A DNA stretch of 64,000 bases from Eledone cirrhosa (taxonomy: Eukaryota). The stretch is from contig CAXHJY010000130.1 of NCBI GenBank assembly GCA_964016885.1, forward strand, positions 1-64,000, read 5' to 3'. Below the pieces are notes generated by a model that was not told the DNA's origin, did no database searches, and was given only the letters and a program-made list of their open reading frames with translations. How positions within the stretch are numbered: the first letter of the stretch is position 1; the number at the start of each line of letters is the position of its first letter. The translations under genes and the position numbers were made by a program. Positions 7,761 through 56,600 of the stretch are shown piece by piece.

Positions 7761-8099
7761 AAATATATATATATATATATATATGAGAGACGTAAGATAA
7801 GAAAATTATAAAATTATAAAAAAATTATAAAATTGACTTACTTACTAAAATATCACTTCCAACTAATTAGTTTCTGGAATGGAGTAAATATATTTTCCGA
7901 AGAATATATAGAAAAGCATTCCGTCGTCAGGAAAGTCTATTTTCATGTAAGTTTCCAGGCATAGCGAGGACTCTGGAAACTTATTAAAAAAATAATTCAG
8001 TGGAAAGGAAATAGCGAAGCGTGGACTGAAATCCTAGCCATTGAGTAAATCACTGCCTCTACGTCTGTGGCAAATTCAAAAAGTTACTAGATATAAATT

Positions 8100-25340: not shown

Positions 25341-25481
25341 TATTAAAATAACAGATTAAAGTTTAAGCAAAGAATCGCTGCTTTCACCCTTAACGGGATC
25401 TTCTGAAACCCCGTTTCAGAAGATCCCGTTAAGGGTGAAAGCAGCGATTCTTTGCTTAAACTTTAATCTGTTATTTTAATA
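25341..25481. repeat. Perfect foldback (69-bp arms, 3-nt loop) of the CAGAAGA family
   Basis: ...gggatcttctgaaac-ccc-gtttcagaagatccc... Confidence 0.92.
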
Positions 25482-25538: not shown

Positions 25539-25902
25539 CATGTGTGTGTGTGTGTGTGTGTGTAAATATGTATATGTATGTATGTTATCACAATACCTTC
25601 CTAGGAGATGGAAACTCTGAATAAAAAGCATGCGACTTCGAAATCATCCGATGATGTTCACCAGTTTTTCCTTTTCGGGCAGTGTTTTCGATGCTCAGAA
25701 TGGGATTGGTCGAGTGCAAGGCCTTTCCCCACTTAAAAAAGCCTTCAAAACACAGGCATTGCTTGTTCAGGATATGTTACAGGTTTGTGTGGCTGGCCGT
25801 AGCCTAAAAGTGCACCAAACTCTATTATCTGACAAGTGATTTACTCTTAATAGAGTTTGCATCCATCATGTATGTATGTATGTATGTATGTATGTATGTA
25901 TG

Positions 25903-26378
25903 TTCTTCTGGTTTTATAATTTCACAATTTTTTTCCCAATAAGGAGAGAGTCGGTTTCTAACATAGACACAAGACTCTCTTATTGGAATTTACACAACAT
26001 CAACTAGGGAGATTATGTATGCATGTGTAGATATGGATGTTATTGTATGTGTGGATGTGTATGTTTTAATTGTATGTGTGCATGTGTATATGCTTTGCAT
26101 CTGTACATGTGTATATGCAGTTATTAGATGCACAATCTTTGGAATGTTTTACAAATTTTTACTGTTCCATTAATGGATTGTACTTGTAATTCCTAACTAG
26201 TTGTGTTCTTTCTGTTCCTGTGAAGCCTAGCTTCTCAAGATTTGTATTGAGGCAGTTACTAACATACCCCAGTGCCCCAATAATCACAGGCATAAATCTG
26301 AAGGTGTAATCAGGGTGGAGTATCTGCAGATTTCTCATCAGTTCTGCATAAATATTCTCCTTTTCGCTAATCTTTGAT
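25903..26378 (-). mobile_element. 3' fragment of R4/Dong-like LINE family A
   Basis: Near-identical to 29851-30330. Bounded by (ATGT)n on both sides. Confidence 0.85.
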
Positions 26379-26446
26379 TATGTATGTATGTATGTATGTA
26401 TGTATGTATGTATGTATGTATGTATGTATGTATGTATGTATGTATG

Positions 26447-27052
26447 TCAGGTCACCAGTTGGTGCTACTGGTAACATGTATCCCAGTACAACCTGTCTCA
26501 TGGTCGGGTCGTTGGCGACTAAACTGGCAACCCCACCAAGGTTTCTTGGTGAGGAGGGTGACTTTGGACATCCTGCAGGACGAAAAACAAAACCTGTCAA
26601 AGAGCAAAGGAGCTCTTAAGAGTCAATGGCCATCCAAAATCACCGGGAGAGATGACCCCTTAGCCTTTGTCAAGGAAGAATTCTAGGAGAAGGAAAACTC
26701 TTATATAACACCTGCAACTCTGATGGTATCCACTGATGTTGACTTGTTCTTCTTTTTGGTAAATATCATCTTGGTTAAGAGAGTGGGACTGGCTTTGTGC
26801 AGTGCCTTTGCTCACTATAAAAGCTTCACGGAACAGGCATTGCTTTATATCTGGAGATCTCTCTGCACTTGTCGTCACATGGTACCATGGGCCCAGCACT
26901 ATGTGTCAATAATTGTCACAAGTGTAGTGTTTGTACCAGAGTTTTCAAGTCGCTGGCCGAACTAAAAAGTCACACTCGTTCAACGCATCGGTAGGGGTTC
27001 TCCTACATGGATATAAAGTAGTGGCCGTACTCGAAAACGAGTTGGCAGCCAC
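26447..27052 (-). mobile_element. Non-coding non-autonomous element inserted in (ATGT)n (strand inferred)
   Basis: Same termini as 34012-34418. A terminal fragment occurs at 53450-53545. Always abuts (ATGT)n. Confidence 0.8.
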
Positions 27053-27116
27053 TATGTATGTATGTATGTATGTATGTATGTATGTATGTATGTATGTATG
27101 TATGTATGTATGTATG

Positions 27117-29793
27117 TTTCTCTTTCTCTTAATTTCGAGTATATTTTTTTGACCGGCCACCTTCCTGGTGGCAAGGTTGTAAAAGAAAAGAAATTGTCAT
27201 CCCTTGAATCGCAAGAATGTTTTGCAAATTTTGAAGGTGCCAGCTATCGCAGCCATTTGTAAACTATGAATTAGGGAGCTGCGCTTTTTGTCCGCAAATC
27301 CAAGTTCAGTCATACTTTGGTCCAAGCGGGTTGGTATATAACCCGTAGCTCCAATAATGATGGGTATGAAGCTAAAGGTGTATCTTGGATACTGGATTTG
27401 TAAACTCCTCATCAATGGTCCGTAGATGTCCTCCTTCTCCTGTATTTTTCTGACAACGTTTACACAAGTGGGCAGCTGATCTCCACAACAGAACACGTTT
27501 TCAATGTGTGGTCCCAAACAACAATATCAGGCCGGTTGTGCTTTAATTTGATGGCAGTTTTTATTTTCAGGTTCCACCAGTATTCCTTAGTGCCATCTGT
27601 CTCAATATATTCTTCCTCGTTTGTTGTTAATTTTGTTTTCCGAAGTGCGTTCTAGATGGTTCTAGCTATCCCATCGTGTCTCATGGGGAGGTAGTAGCGA
27701 GACGACATTCTTTCGCAGCTGGCAACAATGTGGCTTACATCCTCGATCTTTGTTTTACATAGCCTACATTTATTGTCAGCTGCTGGCCCTCCTCTTTTGT
27801 GCAGCAGATATTTGGTAGGGTGTTCTTGTTCCTGTATTGCATAGAGATATCCCTCAAGGTGTGATGTCATAAACTTGTCGGAACTCCATGCCAGGCTTTT
27901 TGAGTGGTTTATCCCCTCTATGGTCTGTGTTTTACGCCTCAAGTATCCATGCACAACTTTTTCTGTAAATTGGTCAATTTTTTTATCTTGTTTGAATATT
28001 GAATAGGATCTTCCGATTTCTCTGGGTGAGAGATTTATATCAGGCTTTATTCCATATCTCTCCTCCAGATCAGTCGCTATTCTAATGATATTTTTTTTTC
28101 ATGCTCATAAACCTGGGCAAGATGGTTGCCAACCTTTTCCCTCTGTTGAAGGTGTTGCTTCAGTGTTACTATCCGGGTCTCATATGTTGTTAATATTGAT
28201 TTTCGACCCCGGCCACCTTCCTTGCGTGAGAAGTATAGCCTATCCACATCACCATTGATGTTAAAGTTCCCAGTAACACTGAGAAGTTTTCGAGTTCTAA
28301 CATCCATCTCACTTAGTTCTTGCAATGACCAGTTCAGCAGGCCAAATGTTGGCGTTAGAATTGGCACAGCATAAATATTGTGGGCAATGTATTTGTTGCA
28401 TGCTGACAGTTCTGATGACCATATTTTCTTCACTCTTCTGAGGTATTCAGTTCTGGTTCTCTCCTTATTTATGGGTCCATCATATCTGACATTCTCATCC
28501 TGTCCAAGATATCTGTAGTTGTCACCTGACTGCAGAGGTTGTATTGTCAGGCCGTTCATCTCTAGATTTCTAGAGGAGGGCACAGCTCTTCCACGTTTTA
28601 CTGCCAAATATGCACACTTGGACTCACCAAATTTCATTTTGATGTCGGTTGAAAATTGTGTAATGAGGTCCAATTGTTTCTTGATGACATTGATATTTGG
28701 CCCATACAACTTCAGGTCATCAACAAAGAAAAGATGGGAGATACTTCTGGGCCCACTTCTTTGTCCACCTTGTTTCCTGAGTAGGTAAGATAGTGGATTC
28801 AGTGAGAGAACGAAGTGTAGCACTGACAAGCTATCACCCTGAAAGATGCCCTTCTGGTAATGTATCTTATCAGTCTTAACTTGCTCCTTCTCACTTCTAA
28901 GGATCAAATTGGTGTACCAGTTCTTGGTCAGGCGTTCAACAGCAGCTACCAATGGTTGTGGGACTTTAGCTAACTGTAAAGCCTTAATAATCCACCCATG
29001 AGGTACACTAGCAAATGCTTTTTGATAGTCCAGCCACACCACAGTCATGTTTCTGCGATTCTTTGTTGTTTTTTCCTGAATCATTTTGTTAGTTAGTAGG
29101 TGATCTATGCAACCTCACACCTCCCTATTTCCACCAGCTTGCTCAGGTGTTATGATGTTGTTGGTAGCACAGTGATCCTGTAAGAACAGGTTAAGGCACC
29201 CAGTATATAATTTATACATGATGTTTTGGCAGGCTATTGGGCGGTAATTTTTAGCAAGGGTGGTTTGGCTATTTGGGGAATGAGGAGAGTAGTGGCAGTT
29301 GATAACCATCTGGGCAGTTCTTGTGTGCCCTTAATGGTTTCTGTAAACAGCCGTATGAGATCTTGCCGATAGAAAGTGAAATTCTTCAACCAGTATCCTG
29401 TAATGAGGTCTGGGCCTGGCGATTTCCTATTCGACATTTTCTGTAGAGCTGTTTCCAGTATTGACCCATTTATGTCGTATTGTTTTATCTGGACATGTTG
29501 GCAGTAGTCCTGTTCCAGTTCTTTTAGGCAATTAGCTTGTCTGTTGAATCCGTCATCCATTTCCCATACAGATCTCAACCTGTTCTTTTGAAGGGTGTCG
29601 TTTACAGGGATTGAGCTTTTGCCACCGAAGCTGCGATAAACTGATTTAGGATCTCTGGCAAACAATCTATTTAGCACTTGTCGTTTATGTGCTGTTGACT
29701 TATATTTTAGTCTTTCTGTTGTAGCTGTGAGTTGTTGTTTATACTGGTGTAATTTGGAGTTCAAAGTTTTAAATTTGTATCTCCAAATCGTCT
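27117..29793 (-). mobile_element. 5'-truncated R4/Dong-like LINE family B (RT, CCHC, restriction-like endonuclease), frameshifted
   Basis: NYRPIAC, WLDYQKAF.SVPH, GIFQGDSLS, HLFFVDDLKLY, CRLC...HIVASC, RHD, PDIVV, PIIIGATG. (ATGT)n on both sides. Confidence 0.88.
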
Positions 29794-29820
29794 CTGTATG
29801 TATGTATGTATGTATGTATG

Positions 29821-29850
<30 letters not shown>

Positions 29851-29851
<1 letters not shown>

Positions 29852-32800
29852 GTTCTTCTGGTTTTATAATTTCACAATTTTTTACCAATAGAGAAAGAGT
29901 CGGTTTCTAACATAGACACAAGACTCTCTCATTGGAATTTACACAACATCAACTAGGGAGATTATGTCTGCATGTCTGCATGTGTATATATGGATGTTAT
30001 TGTATGTGTGGATGTGGATGTTTTGAGTTGTATGTGTGCATGTGTATATGCCTTGTATCTGTACATGTGTATATGCAGTTATTAGATGTAACATTTTTGG
30101 AATATTTTACATATTTTTACTGTTCCATTAATGGATTGTACTTGTAATTTCCTAACTAGTTGTGTTCTTTCTGTTCCTGTGAAGCCTAGCTTCTCAAGAT
30201 TTGTATTGATTCAGTTACTAACATATCCCAGTGCCCGAATAATCACAGGCTTAAATCTGAAGGTGTAATCAGGGTGGAGTATCTGCAGATCTCTCATCAG
30301 TTCTGCATGAATATTCTACTTTTCGCTAATATTTGATATTATATTGCCATCTGCTGGGAAGCTAATTTCCACTACTGTGCATGTTTTCTTCTCCCTGCCC
30401 CATATCATAATATATGGTCTGTTATTCCTGCATTTTATTGGAGTTTTTACTGGAACATTCCACCAGTACTCTTTCATATTATGTACATGGATGTCTTCCA
30501 CATTACTGTAGCTTTTAATGTGTTTATTATCGGGCTATTTTTTTACGAACTGCATTGTACAGTGTTTTGGCCTCTACAACATGCCTAATGGTAGATAGTA
30601 CCGCGATGACATCTTTGGACAGCTGCTGATGACATGGGTGATATCCTCGATGTTAGTTCTGCAGAGTCTGCTCTTGTTATTGCATCTAGGTGTTTTGCCT
30701 GCATCCCTATCTCTTTTGTGAATCAGGTATTTCGTGTTAATCTCCTGTTCTTGGATTGCAAAAGCGTATCCTTCAAAGTAGGAGCCAATATAGCGGTTGT
30801 TGGTCCAAGATAGACTACTTTCCTTATCTATATTACTCTCACTCTGGAGCTCCCTGGCAACATATCCATTCCATGCATGATTTTTTGCTGACAAGCATGC
30901 AGCTTTTTATCCATGGATTCACTGCGATACTGCTGTGCGACTTCCCTGCGTATGAGTTTTTGATTATCACACAGGGAATATCTCTCGAGGAGTTCCTTCC
31001 CAACTCTCATGATCTTATCTGTTTCATGCAGATAGACTTGCTCGAGAAACGGGCTCCTACGCTTCGAGGTTCGTCGATGTTGTCGGAGAGATATGATGCG
31101 ACATTCAAATGTGTCTGGACTGATGTTAGGCTTCTGCCTCCCTGCTTACGTTTCAAGTAAAGGCGGTCTATGTCACTGCTGATGGGGAAGTTTCCGGTGT
31201 TGTTTAGTATTTTAGTTCCAACATCAACTGCTCGGATTTCGTCTATCGTCCAATTGAGTATTCCAAACGTTGGTGTTAGGACAGGTACAGCAAACACATT
31301 GTGAGACACTGTTTTGCACGGAGAGTTCCGATGATCAGATCTTTCTTAATCGGGTGTAGTATTCCCTGGTTACGCGTTCTTTATTACAGATACCATTATA
31401 GGATATGTTCTCATCTATCCCCAGGTATCTGTAGCAGTCCTCATCAGATATCGGTGAAACAGTTAGGTCATTGATGACAATGTTGCTAGATTGAGTTGTT
31501 GTTTTACCCCGCTTTACAGTCACGTATGCACATTTATCTTGGCCAAACTCCATTCCTATATCCTTTGAGAATGTTGTAACCAGGTCAAAATTTTTCTTCA
31601 CTCCATCCATGTTCTTGGCATAGAGTTTCAGATCGTCCACAAAGAAATTATGGGGTAGGTTCGTATTTCTGTCCTCCTGTGAGCCAATTATGTATCCCTC
31701 ACATTTCTTGAGCAGAAAGGACAAGGGGTTTAATGACAAGATGAATAATATCACAGAGAGACTTTCCCCCTGAAATATACCTCTACAATATTTTATTTTA
31801 TCAGTGAAAATAGAGTCCTCCCTCTCTGTCTTTAACCTTAGGATAGTATCCCAAGAAGAAGACAGCCTCTCTATGGCTCTGACAATAATGTCTGGGACTT
31901 TAGCAAGTTGGAGGGCCTCTATCATCGAAGAGTGGGGAACAGAATCGAAAGCTTTCCTGTAGTCCAGCCAGACTGTAGTCATATTCCTCCTAAGTTGTCG
32001 CACCTCCGACATCGCAGTTTTGTTGATTAGGAGTTGTTCAGCACATCCCCAAACCCCTTTCTTTCCAGCTGCTTGTTCATCTGTGATGATGTTATTATTT
32101 TCACAGTGATGTTGGAGGAATAGGTTCAGGCAGGCTGTATACATCTTATACATCAGGTCCTGGCATGCAATGGGTCGGTAGTTTTTTGTCAAGTGGGTGT
32201 ATTTGTTCTTGGGGACCAGTAATGTTTGTGCTAATGTCAACCATTCTGGTATAAGTGTATCTCCATTAAGAACTTGTTGGTAGAGGTCAGTAAGATACCT
32301 CCGATAGAATATCAATTTTTTGTACCAGTAGCCGACAATCATGTCTCTTCCTGGTATTTTTTTATCTTGGAGTTTTTCTATCACAGTCTCAAGGGTACCC
32401 TCACTTATTTCGTATGTTTTTGTTGTAGTGTAGGAGTAATAATTCTTTCGGATTTCTCTTAGCCACACTGCATCTTGGTTGAAATTCTTTTTTTTTACCC
32501 CATATTTTTCTCCAAAAGGAATCTATGTCTTTCTGGGATGGGGCCTCAGTGACACTTATTATTTTGTCCTTTATATCTCTATAGACTGATGTTTGGTTTC
32601 GTCTGAATCTTTTATTAAGCACTTTTCTCTCATCTACCTTCTTCAGGTATCGACGTTTTTCGCTAACAGCTCTCAATTATTGTTTGAGGGTGATCAGCTT
32701 ATATTGAAGACTTCTGGTTCTACTGTTACCAAACATCGTCTCTATTTTATTTTTAACTCTTTGTTGGTGAGGACTGAGGTTTGTTTGTGTTTGTTTGCAT

Positions 32801-33942
32801 GTAAGGAGCATTGTCACATATCCTATGGTTTTTCGTAGGTCAGCAATCTTTTTTTCTATTTTAGTTATATATGATGGTATTTTTGGTGGTGTTCTGTTCT
32901 TGTTAATATCTCTGCTATTACCAAGATAATGCTTCATTGTCGTTGCTAGGGCATATAAATAGGCGTTGATTTGCCAAAATGTTGGGGTTTTTATCCGTCG
33001 TAAATATTCATCACCTATTTCGTCAATAACACGTAATATTTCATTATTTGGTTTTTATTAAACATTGTCGTTTTAATACGTTCAGCAAGAGAGATATTTA
33101 TACATGAATTAATTTCTCTCTGGAAGATTTCGTTGAGGGAAATTTTCAATTGTTTATACTTTCGATTATCATCATTATCGATAGTATTTCCCACAACAGT
33201 CGAGGTAGACTCGGATGGTACACGTGGTGTCAAATTTCTTCGATTATTATCGATAGTGTTTTCCCCAGCATTCGAGGTAGACTTAGATGGTACAGGTGGT
33301 GTCAAGTTTCTTACAGACATAGTTATTTCAAGGCGCTGTTCGACCTGGCTGCTAGGAAGTCTAGTAGCATGGCGACTTGTAGCACGTTTTGTTGATAACA
33401 TGTTTGTTGTGGGGAACTTACAATTAATAATATTTATCTTATTTTTACGTTCAACAAACGTCGCTTGTTCGCGTAATCGTTTCGCTGTGAAATAATTTAG
33501 CTCTGGGTGCATTTCGTCCCAGTGTAGCTTCATTCTATTCATATAGCCAATGGAGGGAATGTTTTTTGCCATTTTATAACAATTAAATAAATCATTATTA
33601 AGTTCGCAACTCCAAGAGAAATGCGATTTATAATTTCGGTTTCTTCTGTAGCTACAACTGAATAAAGTTTATTTACCTTTCTTTTTGGTTGTCTTCGGTA
33701 CTTCCTTAATTTTGTTGTTGATGTTGTGTCCAGCCATGCTGTTTGTAGCAAATCCTTGTAAAATGAATTATGTAATTAGTCGGATATCTCTACGAATTCG
33801 AATATACTTCAGAAGATATAGTTAGAAGAATAACCAGTTATTCAACATGACTGTAGTTGTGGCATTACTGTCGGAGATAGTATTCATCTTAAATTTAATA
33901 AATAGTCTCCCACGCCAAAATATGCGACTGATCGCGTTGACT
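29851..33942 (-). mobile_element. Apparently full-length R4/Dong-like LINE family A, degraded by frameshifts
   Basis: N-terminal GYMNRMKLHW...LREQ; RT WLDYRKAFDSVPH, GIFQG.SLS, FFVDDLKLY; RLC..HVISSC; RLE tail. (ATGT)n on both sides. Confidence 0.9.
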
Positions 33943-34011
33943 GTATGTATGTATGTATGTATGTATGTATGTATGTATGTATGTATGTATGTATGTATGT
34001 ATGTATGTATG

Positions 34012-34418
34012 TCAGGTTACCAGTTGGTGCTACTGGTAACATGTATCCCAGTACAACCTGACTCATTGTCGGGTCGTTGGCGACTAAACTGGCAACCCCA
34101 CCAAGGTTTCTTGGTGAGGAGGGTGACTTTGGACATCCTGCAGGACTAAAAACAAAACCTGTCAAAGGAGCTCTTAAGAGTCAATGGCTATCCAAAATAA
34201 CCGGGAGAGATGACCCCTTAGCCTTTGTCAAGGCAGAATTCTAGGAGAAGGAACACTCTGATATAACACCTGCAACTCTGATGGTATCCAATGATGTTGA
34301 CTTGTTCTTCTTTTTGGTAAATATCATCTTGGTTAAGAGAGTGGGACTGGCTTTGTGCAGTGCCTTTGCTCACTATAAAAGCTTCACGGCACTCGAAAAC
34401 GAGTTGGCAGCCACCACC
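34012..34418 (-). mobile_element. Second copy of the (ATGT)n-inserted non-coding element, with a ~200-bp internal deletion
   Basis: Aligns with 26447-26829 and then jumps to 27028-27052. Confidence 0.8.
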
Positions 34419-34734
34419 ATGTATGTATGTATGTATGTATGTATGTATGTATGTATGTATGTATGTATGTATGTATGTATGTATGTATGTATGTATGTAT
34501 GTATGTATGTGGGTAGTAAGAATCGACCTTTTACTACCGTTATGAAAGTTCATTCACTTACTTTCAGATCTTCTTATATCATTGCACCAATATAAGTGTA
34601 CATACACGCATGGTATTTGGATACATTCCGTCTTGATAATTTCTTACTCTTGAATTATTGTATTGAGTCTCCTAATAAAAATACTTCAATTTTAAGTTAG
34701 TAGAGCTGACTTTAGCTTATAACAGTGACTATTT

Positions 34735-35000
34735 TTAGCACTCTGGTTGACCTGTGCATTTGTCAGACAATATGATTAATAATTTTACATATTAATCTAC
34801 ATGTTAATATACGTGCTTCTTCTCCTAAATGTTATTAGAATTTCTTCATGTTAGACCAAAGGCGCTGATAGTTCTAGCAATCCCGTTGGCCTGCCTGTAT
34901 CCTTATATTATAACGTATTCACCATATCCGTTCATATTCTAGCGCTCTGGTTGACCTATACATTTGTCAGACAATATGATTAATAATTTTACGTAGTAAT
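34735..35000 (+). repeat. Imperfect ~55-bp direct repeat, about 205 bp apart
   Basis: agc(a/g)ctctggttgacct...catttgtcagacaatatgattaataattttac at ~34737 and ~34941. Confidence 0.7.
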
Positions 35001-35534: not shown

Positions 35535-36250
35535 AAGTGGTACGCGATGGGGCCCACCCACAGCCCCGGCGGACAGGATGGAGAAGGCGTTTCCCCGGAG
35601 GACGGCGAGGGAGACGCGCTGGAAGAGCCACTCTAACTCGCGGGGCTCACACCTGCGGCTGGCCGGCTCAGTGCCTATGGTGGTGAGTAAGGAGGTAGCC
35701 CTGGGGCCGAGGACACCAGAAGTCTCCACTGCCAGGGGTACGATCGCAAACCTGTCGGAGAGCGACCGGTAATTGAGGAGTTTGGCCCCCTCAGCCCGAC
35801 GTGCAGCAGAATCTGGGTCGGTCGCAGACTGCACCAGGTTGCGGCTGCAGAAAGTGTCGGTACAAGTGGCATCCCAGACGAGGGGTTTGCCACCGCGGAA
35901 CGGGAAGATGGTCATGTCATCTGGCCTTTTGCCATCTCCTCGATCCAGTCCCACTGGCTCGAGCTGGGAAGGGAAGCCTGCAGAGTCCAAGCCCCGTTGA
36001 GGGCAGTATGGCGTGGAATGCGGCCGGCACTGTGGAGACAGGAAAGCGGGTGGAGGCCGAAAGAGTCCACGGTGGAACCGCAGCGACATTGGTGTGGCTG
36101 GCAGATCCGGAGGCCGAGCCTCAGGGAAACCCTGATGCGCAGGCTATGGTTGTCTAGTTGCGTGCCAGTGGAGAAGGAGGGCAGGGCATGGAGCCAGGCA
36201 CCACTGTGGGGTTTGGAGGCCGTACGAAAACAAGCAAGGTGGTAGGACAG
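35535..36250 (-). mobile_element. 5'-truncated CRE-like retrotransposon copy
   Basis: Highly similar to 16082-16720 and 48900-49620 ([22 protein letters not shown]). Confidence 0.82.
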
Positions 36251-52360: not shown

Positions 52361-53449
52361 GTAAGTAATTCATATTGCTATATATTGTATATTTGTTGAT
52401 GTTTTAAATTAGTTTAGTTGAATTTATCAATTGTACACAAGACGTGTCATAGCTCCAGTGTGACTCTATGAGAGTTGAAGATTATTAGGACTTACCTGTC
52501 CACTAAAATATCACATGACACATTACACTACCTAGATACATAGGTAATATCAAATATCCCGTATTGTGACACCAAGGAGACGAGAAGCCAATGATCAACA
52601 TGCCAAACTTCTCTCTAGTGTTTCATGTTTAAATCTTATGTTATTTATATGGTCAGATGTATAAGGTACCAGTACGGCTTACATCTTCACATTGTTCACA
52701 GTTGTTGAAAAACAAAGTGTAAGGTCTTGTAAGCTCTATCGCGATTGATAGAGAAGTTATCGATCTATATATGTGATCAGTTACATCTAATTCTTTAGGA
52801 TGGTGAATTGACAGAGTCGATAGAACATCGGACACAATACTTTGGGGTATTTGTCGTGACTCTTTCCACTCAAGTTTCACACCTCATTGTGGTAAAGTTT
52901 GTCTTCCATAATCTAGTGAGGTGTATAGTTAGATTTGTTACAACATCTGATGAGATGTGATATTTCTTACGGTTATTTGCCTTCTATAGTGTCTTCAGTG
53001 ATGGACTTAATACGTAATCCAGCTTAACACTACCGCTTTGGTTGTTTTTTTTACCTTTAACGTAGTTCACTCTCCTGCAAACATTCAAGAGAAATCTCTA
53101 GTTTGGAGGTAATTTTCTCTTTTTTTCACACCATTCTCGAAGACACAGAAAATTAAAGTATCGTGAACGTTAGGTTTCCTTATGTGCTTAAAAAATTGTG
53201 TTGTTCTTGTTTAGAAAAAAGTATGATTTGTATTGTAAAATTTTGTATATATTTTTTCCTTTATCTGTTTTGTTTTCTATGATTTGATATTTCTATCATT
53301 ATTGTGGGAGACGTAGTATTTCTGTTTTAAGGCCGTATTATGGTCAATGAAATCAAAATATCTCAGAGCGAACTTATGTATGTATGTATGTATGTATGTA
53401 TGTATGTATGTATGTATGTATGTATGTATGTATGTATGTATGTATTTAT

Positions 53450-53545
53450 GTCAGGTCGTTCTCGAGTGCTATTGGTGACATGTAACCCAGTACAATCTGT
53501 CTCATGGTCGGGTCGTCGGCAACTAAACCGGCAACTCCACCAAGT
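53450..53545 (-). mobile_element. Terminal fragment of the (ATGT)n-inserted non-coding element, in intron 1
   Basis: tcaggtc...catgtaacccagtacaa..tctcatggtcgggtcgtcggcaactaaaccggcaac directly after (ATGT)n. Confidence 0.75.
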
Positions 53546-53684
53546 ATTATTAAATGCAAGTATCTCCCTACATACAGGAAATTAAAATCAATAGCTTAAT
53601 ATCTTATGTATAATAGAATATATACCATATTGATATTACAGTGTTAGATATAAATATAATTATTGATCATATGATTTTTTACAG

Positions 53685-56600
53685 ACGAATGTACCCATAA
53701 TGGTAAACAATATAACGGAGCATTTAAAATCGACTGCAATACATGTGTGTGTACTGAAACGGGCCAAGCACTGTGTACAAGCAAAAGTTGTGGCTATGGA
53801 CAGCGACATACATGTTGGTATCAAGGTAAACGTTACGCTGTAGGACAGACATCTCAACAATCATGTAATAAATGTGTATGTAAAGCCAGTGGTCAAATGG
53901 AATGTACAAATAATGTGTGCCAGTGTCAATATAAAGGTAATGTCCACAACCATGGACAGACCTTCAAAGATGGATGTAAGTCTTGTACTTGTCAAATTAG
54001 CGGAACAGTGCAGTGTAGCAATCAAGGATGTGAATGTTATCACAAGAACATTCGCTATCAAACCGGACACACATTCTCAGATGATTGCAATACATGTGAA
54101 TGTTTAAGTGATGGAACAGTTAAATGTACTCAGAAAATGTGTAAATGTTACTACAGAGGAAAGATATTTAATGTAGGAGAGAAAATTGAAGAAGATTGCA
54201 ACACTTGCAACTGTCGAGGTAATGGTCAAGTAGATTGTATAAAGAATACGTGTCAGTGTACATATAAAGGAGAGGTTTATCAAATTCGTCAAAGATTTAA
54301 TGAAGAATGTAACCAATGTGTTTGTCAGTCAAATGGAGATGTTCAATGTACCAGTAACGTCTGTAAATGTACATACAATAACCAGGTCTATAATATTGGT
54401 GCTACATTTAATCAGGACTGCAACACCTGTATCTGTCAACAAACTGGACAGTTCCATTGTACATATAAGCAGTGTCAATGTACATATAAAGGACAGGTTT
54501 ATCAGATTAGTCAAAGATTTAAAGAAGAATGTAACCAATGTGTTTGTCAGTCAAATGGAGATGTTCAATGTACCAGTAACGTCTGTAAATGTACATACAA
54601 CAACCAGGTCTATAATACCGGGGCTTTATTTTATCAGGACTGTAACACCTGTACCTGTCAACAAAATGGACAGGTCCAATGTACAAATAACCCCTGTCAA
54701 TGTACATATAATGGACAGGTTTATCAAACTAGTCAAAGATTTAATGAAGAATGTAACCAATGTGTTTGTCAGTCAAATGGAGATGTTCAATGTACCAGTA
54801 ACGTCTGTAAATGTACATACAACAACCAGATCTATAATATCGGGGCTACATTTAATCATGACTGTAACACCTGTATCTGTCAACAAAAAGGACAGATTCA
54901 ATGTACAAATAAGCAGTGTCAATGTACATATAATGGACAGGTTTATCAAATTCGTCAAAGATTTAACGATGATTGTAACCAATGTGAATGTTTATCTAGT
55001 GGTACAGTGCAGTGTTCTAACAAGCCATGTATATGTTTTGAAAATGGAAGATCTTACCCCATTGGTACTACATTTAGCAAGGACTGCAACACCTGTACCT
55101 GTCAACAAAATGGAGACGTACAATGTACAAATAACCGTTGTCAATGTACATATAAAGGACAGGTTTATCAAACTAGTCAAAGATTTAATGAAGAATGTAA
55201 CCAATGTGTTTGTCAGTCAAATGGAGATGTTCAATGTACCAGTAACGTCTGTAAATGTACATACAACAACCAGGTCTATAATATCGGGGCTTCATTTAAT
55301 CAGGACTGCAACACCTGCACCTGTCAAGAAAAAGGACAGGTCCAATGTACATATAAGCAGTGTCAATGTACACATGAAGGTCATGTTTACCAAACTCATC
55401 AAAGATTTTACGATGATTGTAACCAATGTGAATGTTTATCTAGTGGTACAGTGCAGTGCTCTAACAAGCCATGTAAATGTTTTGAAAATGGAAGATCTTA
55501 CCCCATTGGTGCTAGATTTATCAAGGACTGTAACATATGCACCTGTCAACAAAATGGACAGGTCCAATGTACAAATAAGCAGTGTCAGTGTACATATGAA
55601 GGACAGGTTTATCAAAGTAGTCAAAGATTTAAAGAAAAATGTAACCAATGTGTTTGTCAGTCAAATGGAGTTGTTCAATGTACCAGTAACGTCTGTAAAT
55701 GTACCTACAACAACCAGATCTATAATATCGGGGCTTCATTTAATCATGATTGCAACACCTGTACCTGTCAACAAAATGGACAGGTCCAATGTTCAAATAA
55801 GCAGTGTCAGTGTACATATAAAGGACTGGTTTATCAAACTAGTCAAAGATTTAATGAAGAATGTAACCAATGTGTTTGTCAGTCAAATGGAGATGTTCAA
55901 TGTACCAGTAACGTCTGTAAATGTACCTACAACAACCAGATCTATAATAACGGGGATTCATTTAACCATGACTGTAACACCTGTATCTGTCAAGAAAAAG
56001 GACAGATCCAATGTACAAATAACCCCTGTCAATGTACACATAAAGGACAGGTTTATCAAATTAATCAGAGATTTAATGAAGAATGTAACCAATGTGTTTG
56101 TCAGTCAAATGGAGTTGTTCAATGTACCAGTAACGTCTGTAAATGTACCTACAACAACCAGATCTATAATATTGGGGCTTCATTTAATCAGGACTGCAAC
56201 ACCTGCACTTGTCAACAAAATAGACAGGTCCAATGTTCAAATAACCCCTGTCAATGTACATATAAAGGACAGGTTTATCAAACTAGTCAAAGATTTAATG
56301 AAGAATGTAACCAATGTGTTTGTCAGTCAAATGGAGATGTTCAATGTACCAGTAACGTCTGTAAATGTACCTACAATAACCAGATCTATCATATCGGTAC
56401 TACATTTCATCAGGACTGCAATACCTGCACTTGTCAACAAAATAGACAGGTCCAATGTTCAAATAACCCCTGTCAATGTACATATAAAGAACAGGTTTAT
56501 CAAACTAGTCAAAGATTTAATGAAGAATGTAACCAATGTGTTTGTCAGTCAAATGGAGATGTTCAATGTACCGAAAAAATTTGTAAATGTACCTACAATA

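What the first reader, a model, noticed from the sequence alone, without database searches (positions are those of the whole stretch)
25868..34510. (TACA)n-targeted retrotransposon community: two R4/Dong-like LINE families stacked in one tetranucleotide microsatellite
Seen: five consecutive insertions are separated by six (ATGT)n tracts. The three LINE copies share one orientation and their 3' ends join in essentially the same register (...GAAC|ATAC, ...AAAC|ATAC). Established: R4/Dong elements encode a restriction-like endonuclease and known members target 28S rDNA or (TAA)n. Inference: a lineage specific for (TACA)n that regenerates its own target on each insertion and so builds 8-kb arrays. 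I do not recall this specificity being described.
Basis: partly seen in the sequence, partly recalled or inferred. Interest (0 to 1): 0.75.

Follow-up and report, generated by a model that had tools for sequence, protein, structure and literature searches.

The report
Dong-type retrotransposons targeting TACA repeats
In what is likely an octopus genome, two families of jumping genes sit inside TACA repeats facing one way and an unrelated family sits in the same repeats facing the other way; they likely aim at these repeats when they insert, whereas the described repeat-targeting relatives of the first two aim at TAA repeats.

Summary
In detail: six (ATGT)n tracts, five inserts, three LINE copies on the minus strand. 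The LINEs are two R4/Dong-type families, A and B (RT 52% identical). Counting one copy per locus, 41 of 60 5'-truncated copies have (ACAT)n at their variable 5' junction. Background is 0.14% of positions and a control LINE scores 0 of 29, so this is a target and not only a tail. The two short inserts are a bipartite derivative (S) of a 4.06-kb RTE LINE and lie in the opposite orientation. A diverged S relative is a sixth insert. The genome also holds ordinary (TAA)n Dong families. A and B form a separate clade (SH-aLRT 100) with two metagenome elements ending in (TACT)n. Family B has ten intact ORFs, 99.4-100% identical. 'Regenerates its own target' is only partly supported. No empty site was seen and nicking is untested. 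ACAY targeting is already described for the unrelated Waldo elements; ten searches found no (TACA)n target for R4/Dong, and Repbase could not be checked. This scan earlier noted the same opposite-strand stacking on (TAA)n in this genome. New variant of a known kind.

The parts
25568..25585 (.). short degenerate (TATG) tract at the left edge of the array
   Evidence: sequence
   Evidence: 68% identity over 167 nt to S (E 3e-17) plus a matching 3' end (30 of 38 nt, 12 of them in the tract)
25868..25903 (.). (ATGT)n tract 1, 36 bp
25904..26378 (-). family A R4/Dong LINE, 475-bp 5'-truncated copy (end of endonuclease and 3' UTR)
   Evidence: 92.4% to insert 4; tblastn to homolog P0001 residues 1066-1146
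26379..26447 (.). (ATGT)n tract 2, 69 bp
26448..27052 (+). element S, 605 bp, non-autonomous bipartite RTE derivative: nt 1-429 match the 5' end and nt 427-605 the 3' end (C2H2-like finger and 3' UTR) of a 4.06-kb RTE LINE
   Evidence: the parent ORF has Exo_endo_phos (E 4.5e-11) and RVT_1
27053..27117 (.). (ATGT)n tract 3, 65 bp
27118..29794 (-). family B R4/Dong LINE, 5'-truncated (lacks about 1.5 kb of 4.2 kb), broken into four frames; RT, CCHC and PD-(D/E)xK endonuclease
   Evidence: intact genomic copies have a 1,174-codon stop-to-stop ORF
29795..29850 (.). (ATGT)n tract 4, 56 bp
29851..33941 (-). family A R4/Dong LINE, full length (4.09 kb) but broken by frameshifts and stops; N-terminal Myb/SANT-like three-helix domain at about 33414-33647, RT at 31335-32522
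   Evidence: the same 5' end recurs at 29 other loci
33942..34012 (.). (ATGT)n tract 5, 71 bp
34013..34418 (+). element S copy with a further internal deletion of about 195 nt
   Evidence: 95.3% to insert 2 over S nt 1-387, then S nt 582-605
34419..34510 (.). (ATGT)n tract 6, 92 bp; to its right begins an older repeat whose other copies mostly start at (TA)/(TG)-type tracts

Best explanation
The array is a pile of independent insertions into one microsatellite, in which two R4/Dong-type LINE families (A, B) sit with (ACAT)n on their sense strand and an RTE LINE's short derivative (S) sits the other way round; both groups likely select the repeat at insertion. Inferred mechanism: the A/B protein binds the repeat, probably through its N-terminal Myb-like domain. 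Its restriction-like endonuclease nicks the (ATGT)n strand, most simply at a T^A step, and target-primed reverse transcription starts there. The cDNA is joined upstream to (ACAT)n with 1-3 nt of microhomology wherever it stops. The RTE protein, with an APE endonuclease, would nick the complementary strand, also at T^A, and accepts (TA)n as well as (TATG)n. Each insertion splits a tract in two, slippage re-lengthens both halves, and these take further insertions. A and B belong to a sub-lineage that is separate from the (TAA)n Dong families of the same genome and appears to use TACN tetranucleotide repeats.
For: 5' junctions of truncated copies, one per query locus, locus-edge cases excluded: A 12 of 20 and B 14 of 21 ACAT; an independent B set 15 of 19; full-length A 25 of 29. 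Controls: 0.14% ACAT and 0.43% ATGT at 7,920 random positions; a CRE-like RLE LINE 0 of 29 at either end; collinear internal breakpoints of A 0 of 21; (TAA) Dong families of the same genome 12 of 17 TAA at 5', 26 of 29 TAA at 3', none ACAT. Strand rule: truncated A+B copies have 52 ACAT against 1 ATGT among 76 junctions, and S has 32 ATGT against 1 ACAT among 49 (includes neighbours, so not independent). The RTE parent has 12 of 20 ATGT and 2 TA. The tract likely predates insertion: 7 of 106 A/B and 8 of 126 R/S copies have the tract 5' but hardly any 3'; R/S 5' and 3' flank types agree (40 tetramer/tetramer, 6 TA/TA, 3 tetramer/TA, 0 TA/tetramer; Fisher p 6e-6; 49 of 126 copies fall in these four cells). 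5' microhomology averages 1.72 (A, n 18), 1.55 (B, n 22) and 2.03 nt (R/S, n 29) against 0.83, 0.83 and 0.73 expected (p 0.002, 0.006, under 0.0001). 3' register: 51 of 65 A ends are followed by ACATAC; 107 of 126 R/S ends by CATGTA, CATATA or CATATG. Tree: A, B and two (TACT)n-flanked metagenome elements lie on one side of a branch with SH-aLRT 100, and 11 TAA-flanked elements lie on the other; 0 of 500 label shuffles were as clustered.
Against: No empty pre-insertion site was observed. About a third of truncated A/B copies (19 of 60) are not classed ACAT at the 5' junction, and 15 of 106 have a 3' tract with none 5'. B is not strict: 1 of 19 5' and 3 of 26 3' flanks are TA-type in the replicate set, and two copies have (CA)n upstream. 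All 10 tracts examined without selection (7 in the window, 3 in 200 random kb) abut these elements, so the elements may make much of the repeat themselves. Loci are the best 30 hits of each search, biased to young copies. A few microhomology rows fall in A's own TACA-like 3' UTR. The nick position and the role of the Myb domain are inferred; fold matches are weak (best Z 5.9). A and B are not sisters in the quick tree, and the target of 12 of the 16 rows of their clade is unknown.
Confidence: 0.8

Rival explanations
1. RNA-tail guidance: neither endonuclease reads the repeat closely. Both nick TpA steps in alternating purine-pyrimidine DNA, and pairing of the RNA's 3' terminal unit (ACAU for A/B, AUGU for R/S) with the nicked strand picks the tract and the orientation.
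For: All three 3' registers fit a nick at TpA (inference). Two unrelated endonuclease types obey mirror-image strand rules. A role of 3' repeats in cleavage or priming has been proposed for RTE (PMC6007223, passages). R/S also uses (TA)n.
Against: The 3' repeat that every copy carries is only about one unit long. A/B had pure (TA)n on neither side in 106 copies although (TA)n tracts outnumber (ACAT)n 223 to 3 in 200 kb. The target type tracks the RT tree.
Confidence: 0.3
2. The tracts are products, not targets: a short 3' tail or target duplication is expanded by slippage after insertion, and arrays come from template jumping or co-mobilisation.
For: All 10 unselected tracts abut these elements. 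RTE tails are known to create microsatellites (PMC2887409, passages). 15 of 106 A/B copies have the tract only 3'. No empty site was seen.
Against: Tracts sit at dozens of different 5' truncation points, with microhomology. Some copies have the tract only 5'. Opposite-strand neighbours share one tract (21 of 65 A ends and 11 of 100 B ends face an R/S 3' end), which template jumping cannot make. Neighbouring copies differ by 5-8%.
Confidence: 0.12
3. Passive accumulation: insertion is unspecific and copies survive or recombine in microsatellite-rich neutral regions.
For: Proposed for Drosophila Waldo-A/B near CA repeats (PMC3812793, passage). The genome is rich in microsatellites.
Against: The junctions are base-exact and strand-specific. 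The control LINE scores 0 of 29. Copies with intact ORFs 99.4-100% identical to each other already show the pattern.
Confidence: 0.04
4. Assembly artefact on a small unplaced contig.
For: The window lies on a small contig, C157.
Against: The same junction types recur on many chromosome-scale contigs, and the inserts differ from each other.
Confidence: 0.02

Closest known systems
Dong (R4 clade): Bombyx Dong, DongAg, DongBg, ostracod Dong1/2
   Same: [quoted passage not shown]
   Different: [quoted passage not shown] A and B are 37-42% identical in RT to TAA-type and insect relatives (B values) and form a separate clade. No HDV-like ribozyme was found by a simple descriptor, whereas Dong has one (PMC3774820 passages).
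Waldo (WaldoAg1, WaldoAg2, WaldoFs1; R1 clade)
   Same: Targets ACAY microsatellites, which includes (ACAT)n = (TACA)n (PMC3812793, passage).
   Different: APE-type endonuclease and a different clade; two ORFs (recalled). The shared target would be convergent.
Octopus Dong-R4 and RTE repeat families
   Same: Both clades are abundant and recently active in octopus: 5 Dong-R4 and 13 RTE families (PMC13282606, first third of the text and passages); full-ORF RTE and Dong consensus in O. bimaculoides (PMC9115989 passages).
   Different: No target site was found described: 'target' occurs 0 times in the main text of PMC13282606, and 'flanked' and 'TSD' 0 times in PMC9115989. A, B or R may be the same as library families there; sequences could not be compared and supplements were not read.
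RTE clade LINEs and their non-autonomous derivatives
   Same: Single ORF with APE and RT, C-terminal C2H2-like fingers, short 3' UTR ending at a microsatellite; S shares both ends with the parent.
   Different: RTE sites are described as not sequence-specific (PMC2887409 passage), only Tx1 and R1 are named as site-specific APE clades (PMC6007223), and Bov-B copies are rarely flanked by sequence like their tail (PMC13295347). Here 12 of 20 truncated parent copies have (ATGT)n 5'.
Other microsatellite-targeting non-LTR families: Mino (AC), Kibi (TC), Koshi (TTC), Togen (TG), some HERO
   Same: Repeat targeting with stacking of copies (PMC3812793; PMC4640811 passages).
   Different: Other clades and other repeats.

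Membership tests
R4/Dong clade | single long ORF with non-LTR RT | tested here: met
   B: ten copies with a 1,174-codon ORF, RVT_1 E 1e-24. A: RVT_1 E 2.5e-22, but no intact ORF among the best 150 of 4,866 candidates (longest 723 aa).
R4/Dong clade | C-terminal CCHC plus restriction-like PD-(D/E)xK endonuclease | tested here: met
   CRLC..H...C, RHD, RPD..E..K are read in the translation (motif names recalled). Best solved relatives are R2 proteins, matched from RT to the C-terminus, E 1e-71.
R4/Dong clade | N-terminal SANT/Myb-like domain without zinc fingers | tested here: met
   Three-helix model, pLDDT 86. The best VIA matches are mostly Myb/SANT/trihelix domains but weak, Z up to 5.9; Foldseek gave nothing at E 0.001. 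The motif aligns with Bombyx and Pediculus proteins, and no N-terminal Cys/His finger is present.
R4/Dong clade | RT groups with named R4, Dong or Rex6 references | tested here: inconclusive
   No sequence labelled R4, Dong or Rex6 was obtained. Proxies were Bombyx and Pediculus proteins and TAA-flanked elements; A and B form their sister group in a midpoint-rooted quick tree without R2, NeSL or HERO outgroups.
Dong in the narrow sense | inserts in (TAA)n | tested here: not met
   0 of 76 truncated 5' junctions and 0 of 129 3' ends of A/B were classed TAA/TTA; other families in the genome are.
Dong in the narrow sense | 5' HDV-like ribozyme | tested here: inconclusive
   No Rfam ribozyme match; an own relaxed descriptor gave 0 hits in A, B and R but was not validated on a known ribozyme.
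R4/Dong clade | endonuclease nicks the target and primes reverse transcription | not testable with these tools
   needs biochemistry
RTE clade (parent R of element S) | single ORF with N-terminal APE endonuclease and RT | tested here: met
   Exo_endo_phos E 4.5e-11 and RVT_1 E 6e-28 in one 863-aa frame; two C-terminal C2H2-like fingers.
RTE clade (parent R of element S) | RT groups with named RTE references | not tested
   assignment rests on architecture and recalled C-terminal motifs
RTE clade (parent R of element S) | insertion not sequence-specific, clear target duplications | tested here: not met
   12 of 20 truncated R and 11 of 23 truncated S copies have (ATGT)n 5', 2 and 4 more have (TA)n; duplications cannot be read inside repeats.
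tRNA-derived SINE (for S) | Pol III RNA-derived head | tested here: not met
   S nt 1-429 are the 5' end of the RTE itself; no tRNA, 5S or 7SL match in Rfam.

The most novel reading that the evidence does not exclude
An old, cross-animal sub-lineage of R4/Dong retrotransposons has moved from TAA to TACN tetranucleotide repeats (TACA here, TACT elsewhere). Its target and strand are set largely by the last few bases of the element RNA pairing with a TpA-nicked strand, a rule shared with an unrelated RTE enzyme on the opposite strand. Target choice would then be re-programmable by changing the RNA tail, and the two machineries would feed each other landing sites.
Probability: 0.2. Interest if true: 0.78.

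Novelty: new variant of a known kind. Interest (0 to 1): 0.5.

Why it matters
How microsatellite-targeting retrotransposons pick their repeat is described as not well understood (PMC3812793, passage). This genome holds intact, nearly identical family-B ORFs on (TACA)n and intact relatives on (TAA)n. Domain and RNA-tail swaps between natural proteins can therefore test whether the Myb domain, the endonuclease or the RNA tail sets the target. It also gives an RTE family with a strong repeat preference, in a clade described as unspecific. In practice, (ATGT)n markers in such genomes are likely flanked by mobile elements.

Tried and rejected
Empty sites: a hunt among 113 clusters in held loci gave only self or overlapping matches; other copies of the right-flank repeat did not continue into the left flank; laying four runs on the array showed no empty allele because repeats were skipped. 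Laying four runs on the B copy gave no usable list of 5' junctions. No RNA holder was listed, which says nothing on expression. The first search with the B 3' end found nothing, even its own place; a longer query worked. Rfam gave only chance miRNA matches to the repeats. A home-made HDV descriptor found nothing. Pfam does not detect the N-terminal domain and Foldseek gave no match at E 0.001. No named R4/Dong/Rex6 protein was retrieved. The careful tree did not finish, so both trees are quick ones; one metagenome row was dropped as too short. The first microhomology count was inflated by BLAST extension and was replaced. Reading S in the LINE orientation was rejected because its fixed end is the right-hand one. 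Tandem duplication was rejected on divergence. PMC4400214 was not held. PMC3124438, PMC5035012 and PMC8967140 (passages) said nothing on this target.
Full report
OBSERVATION. The window holds seven perfect (ATGT)n tracts of 16 bp or more, and six lie at 25868-34510. Between them are inserts of 475, 605, 2677, 4091 and 406 bp. Inserts 1 and 4 are 92.4% identical over the 3' end (family A), insert 3 is a second LINE (family B), and inserts 2 and 5 are 95.3% identical short elements (S). The stretch left of tract 1 (25586-25867) is a diverged S relative (68% over 167 nt, E 3e-17), so the array has six inserts. The genome is 3.0 Gb. The closest named homolog is from Argonauta hians (62%), so the host is likely an octopod (inference).

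WHAT A AND B ARE. Their RT regions are 52% identical. All three window copies are broken or truncated. Elsewhere B has full-length copies of about 4.2 kb. Ten fetched copies carry a 1,174-codon stop-to-stop ORF and are 99.4-100% identical to each other. For A no intact ORF was among the best 150 of 4,866 candidates. The B protein has RT, a CCHC motif and a PD-(D/E)xK endonuclease motif (motif names recalled), and the best solved relatives of the family profile are R2 proteins. The N-terminal 78 residues of A fold as three helices (pLDDT 86), with weak matches mainly to Myb/SANT domains (Z up to 5.9) and no zinc finger. That is the architecture described for R4/Dong (PMC7998251, passages). No named R4 or Dong sequence was available for the tree, so clade membership rests on architecture and proxies.

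TARGET OR TAIL. I classed a junction as repeat-flanked if 14 of 16 nt within 6 nt of it match the repeat on the element's sense strand. The loci are the best 30 hits of each search. Counting only the query copy of each locus, and leaving out the window's own copy and junctions at locus edges, truncated A copies have (ACAT)n 5' in 12 of 20 (9 edge cases) and B in 14 of 21 (8 edge cases). A second B set gives 15 of 19 (8 edge cases; 3 duplicate loci removed). Full-length A copies give 25 of 29. Background is 0.14% ACAT and 0.43% ATGT at 7,920 random positions. A CRE-like LINE from the same window gives 0 of 29 at both ends, and collinear internal breakpoints of A give 0 of 21. Three further results suggest that the tract was there first. 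First, 7 of 106 A/B copies have it 5' but barely 3'. Second, 5' junctions show about twice the expected microhomology to the repeat (A 1.72, B 1.55 against 0.83 nt; p 0.002 and 0.006; a few rows lie in A's own repeat-like 3' UTR). Third, opposite-strand elements share tracts. Against this, 19 of 60 truncated copies are not classed ACAT at the 5' junction, 15 of 106 have only a 3' tract, B sometimes sits in TA- or CA-type repeats, and no empty site was found.

THE SHORT INSERTS. S has a fixed right end and a variable left end, so it reads on the + strand, opposite to A and B. Its 3' part encodes a C2H2-like finger. One locus continued upstream into an RT gene and led to the parent R (244 candidates). 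S nt 1-429 match the first 430 nt and nt 427-605 the last 179 nt of this 4.06-kb element, whose ORF has an APE endonuclease and RT. It is RTE-type by architecture. Truncated R copies have (ATGT)n 5' in 12 of 20, TA in 2, ACAT in 1 and none in 5 (10 edge cases). Truncated S copies have ATGT in 11 of 23 and TA in 4. The 5' and 3' flank types agree (40, 3, 0, 6; p 6e-6; the other 77 of 126 copies are mixed or unflanked on a side), so the 3' tract is mostly target rather than templated tail. Among all junctions held, truncated A+B show 52 ACAT to 1 ATGT and S shows 32 ATGT to 1 ACAT (neighbours included).

LINEAGE. A note from this scan (e1-9522035) pointed to (TAA)n Dong families in this genome. 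A search with a distant protein found three other families. Two were tabulated, with TAA at 12 of 17 5' junctions and 26 of 29 3' ends and none ACAT; the third is a single locus ending in TAA. One has intact 1,216-codon ORFs. A metagenome scan gave 80 loci, of which 5 score clearly closer to B than to the TAA families. Two of these 5 show an element end: L379 has (TACT)n on both sides and L382 has it 3'. Most of the other loci with a visible tail end in TAA. In a quick maximum-likelihood tree of 37 RT rows, A, B, L379 and L382 lie on one side of a branch with SH-aLRT 100, and the 11 TAA-labelled rows lie on the other (0 of 500 shuffles as clustered). Four labelled rows are few, the root is a midpoint, and A and B are not sisters.

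MECHANISM. Shown: junction patterns, strand rule, domain content, youth of B. Inferred: target-primed reverse transcription from a nick in the (ATGT)n strand for A/B and in the (ACAT)n strand for R/S. All three 3' registers fit a nick at T^A (51 of 65 A ends ACATAC; B ends mostly AAACAT or TAACAT, 67 of 100; R/S ends CATGTA, CATATA or CATATG in 107 of 126), but overlap with the repeat hides the exact cut. Whether protein or RNA tail selects the repeat is open. I favour protein reading for A/B, because the target follows the tree and pure (TA)n is mostly avoided although (TA)n tracts outnumber (ACAT)n 223 to 3 in 200 random kb. Arrays grow because each insertion leaves repeat on both sides and slippage restores length. 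This array likely began at the tail of the old S relative, next to an older (TA)-anchored repeat (inference). All ten unselected tracts abut these families, so they may also be the main source of the repeat.

KNOWN AND NEW. Dong is described on (TAA)n, and ACAY repeats are described as the target of the APE-type Waldo elements (PMC3812793, passages; PMC7998251, passages). RTE is described as unspecific (PMC2887409, PMC6007223, PMC13295347; passages). Octopus papers list Dong-R4 and RTE as abundant without a target in the text seen (PMC13282606, first third and passages; PMC9115989 and PMC8967140, passages). Ten searches found no TACA, ACAT or TACT target for R4/Dong. Repbase Reports and the Kojima and Fujiwara 2003 and 2004 papers were not seen, and no supplements were read; these could already list it. 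The Dong-plus-RTE opposite-strand stacking was noted earlier in this scan on (TAA)n in the same genome (unchecked notes).

VERDICT. A real and well-supported target preference, a new variant of a known kind. The added value is the apparent TACN sub-lineage, the RTE partner on the other strand, and intact TACA- and TAA-type proteins in one genome. Interest 0.5.

Noticed in passing
window 53375-53545: Seventh (ATGT)n tract followed by about 95 nt of the 5' end of a diverged S/RTE relative (90% over 79 nt); such 5'-only fragments recur in other loci.
   Followed up: partly
window 25355-25467: Near-perfect inverted repeat of about 110 bp between (TA)n tracts, giving chance miRNA matches in Rfam.
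   Followed up: no
window 35538-36250 (-): Truncated CRE-like RLE LINE (label from recalled motifs); 4,973 candidates genome-wide, no microsatellite preference; used as control.
   Followed up: partly
window 53640-54600: Cysteine-rich repeated coding-like sequence resembling VWC/pacifastin repeats (by eye; resemblance recalled).
   Followed up: no
window 34511-34900: Older repeat (about 80% to other copies, 224 candidates) that mostly begins at (TA)/(TG)-type tracts and is abutted by S-like elements at two other loci, L284 and L285.
   Followed up: partly
L379 (1-100 and 4822-4871), L382 (4651-4694): Metagenome R4/Dong relatives flanked by (TACT)n; L379 has an intact 1,153-codon ORF.
   Followed up: partly
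L429 3' end; L387 3' end; L391 3' end: Other R4/Dong-like metagenome elements ending in (CAA)n, (TTA)n and (TA)n, hinting at further target changes.
   Followed up: no
L048, L051, L056, L058, L123, L156: Copies of S or A with an inverted 5' part, as in twin priming.
   Followed up: no
L147; L306-L308: Tandem duplications of whole [S-tract-B] or B units about 3.1-3.3 kb apart, a second route to arrays.
   Followed up: no
window 33174-33312: 72-bp tandem duplication inside the family A ORF, with a variable AAT-rich insert in other copies.
   Followed up: no
L025, L071, L284, L297: A further element end (…GGGGCAGCCAT) abuts the same tracts in the S orientation: probably another RTE-derived family.
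   Followed up: no
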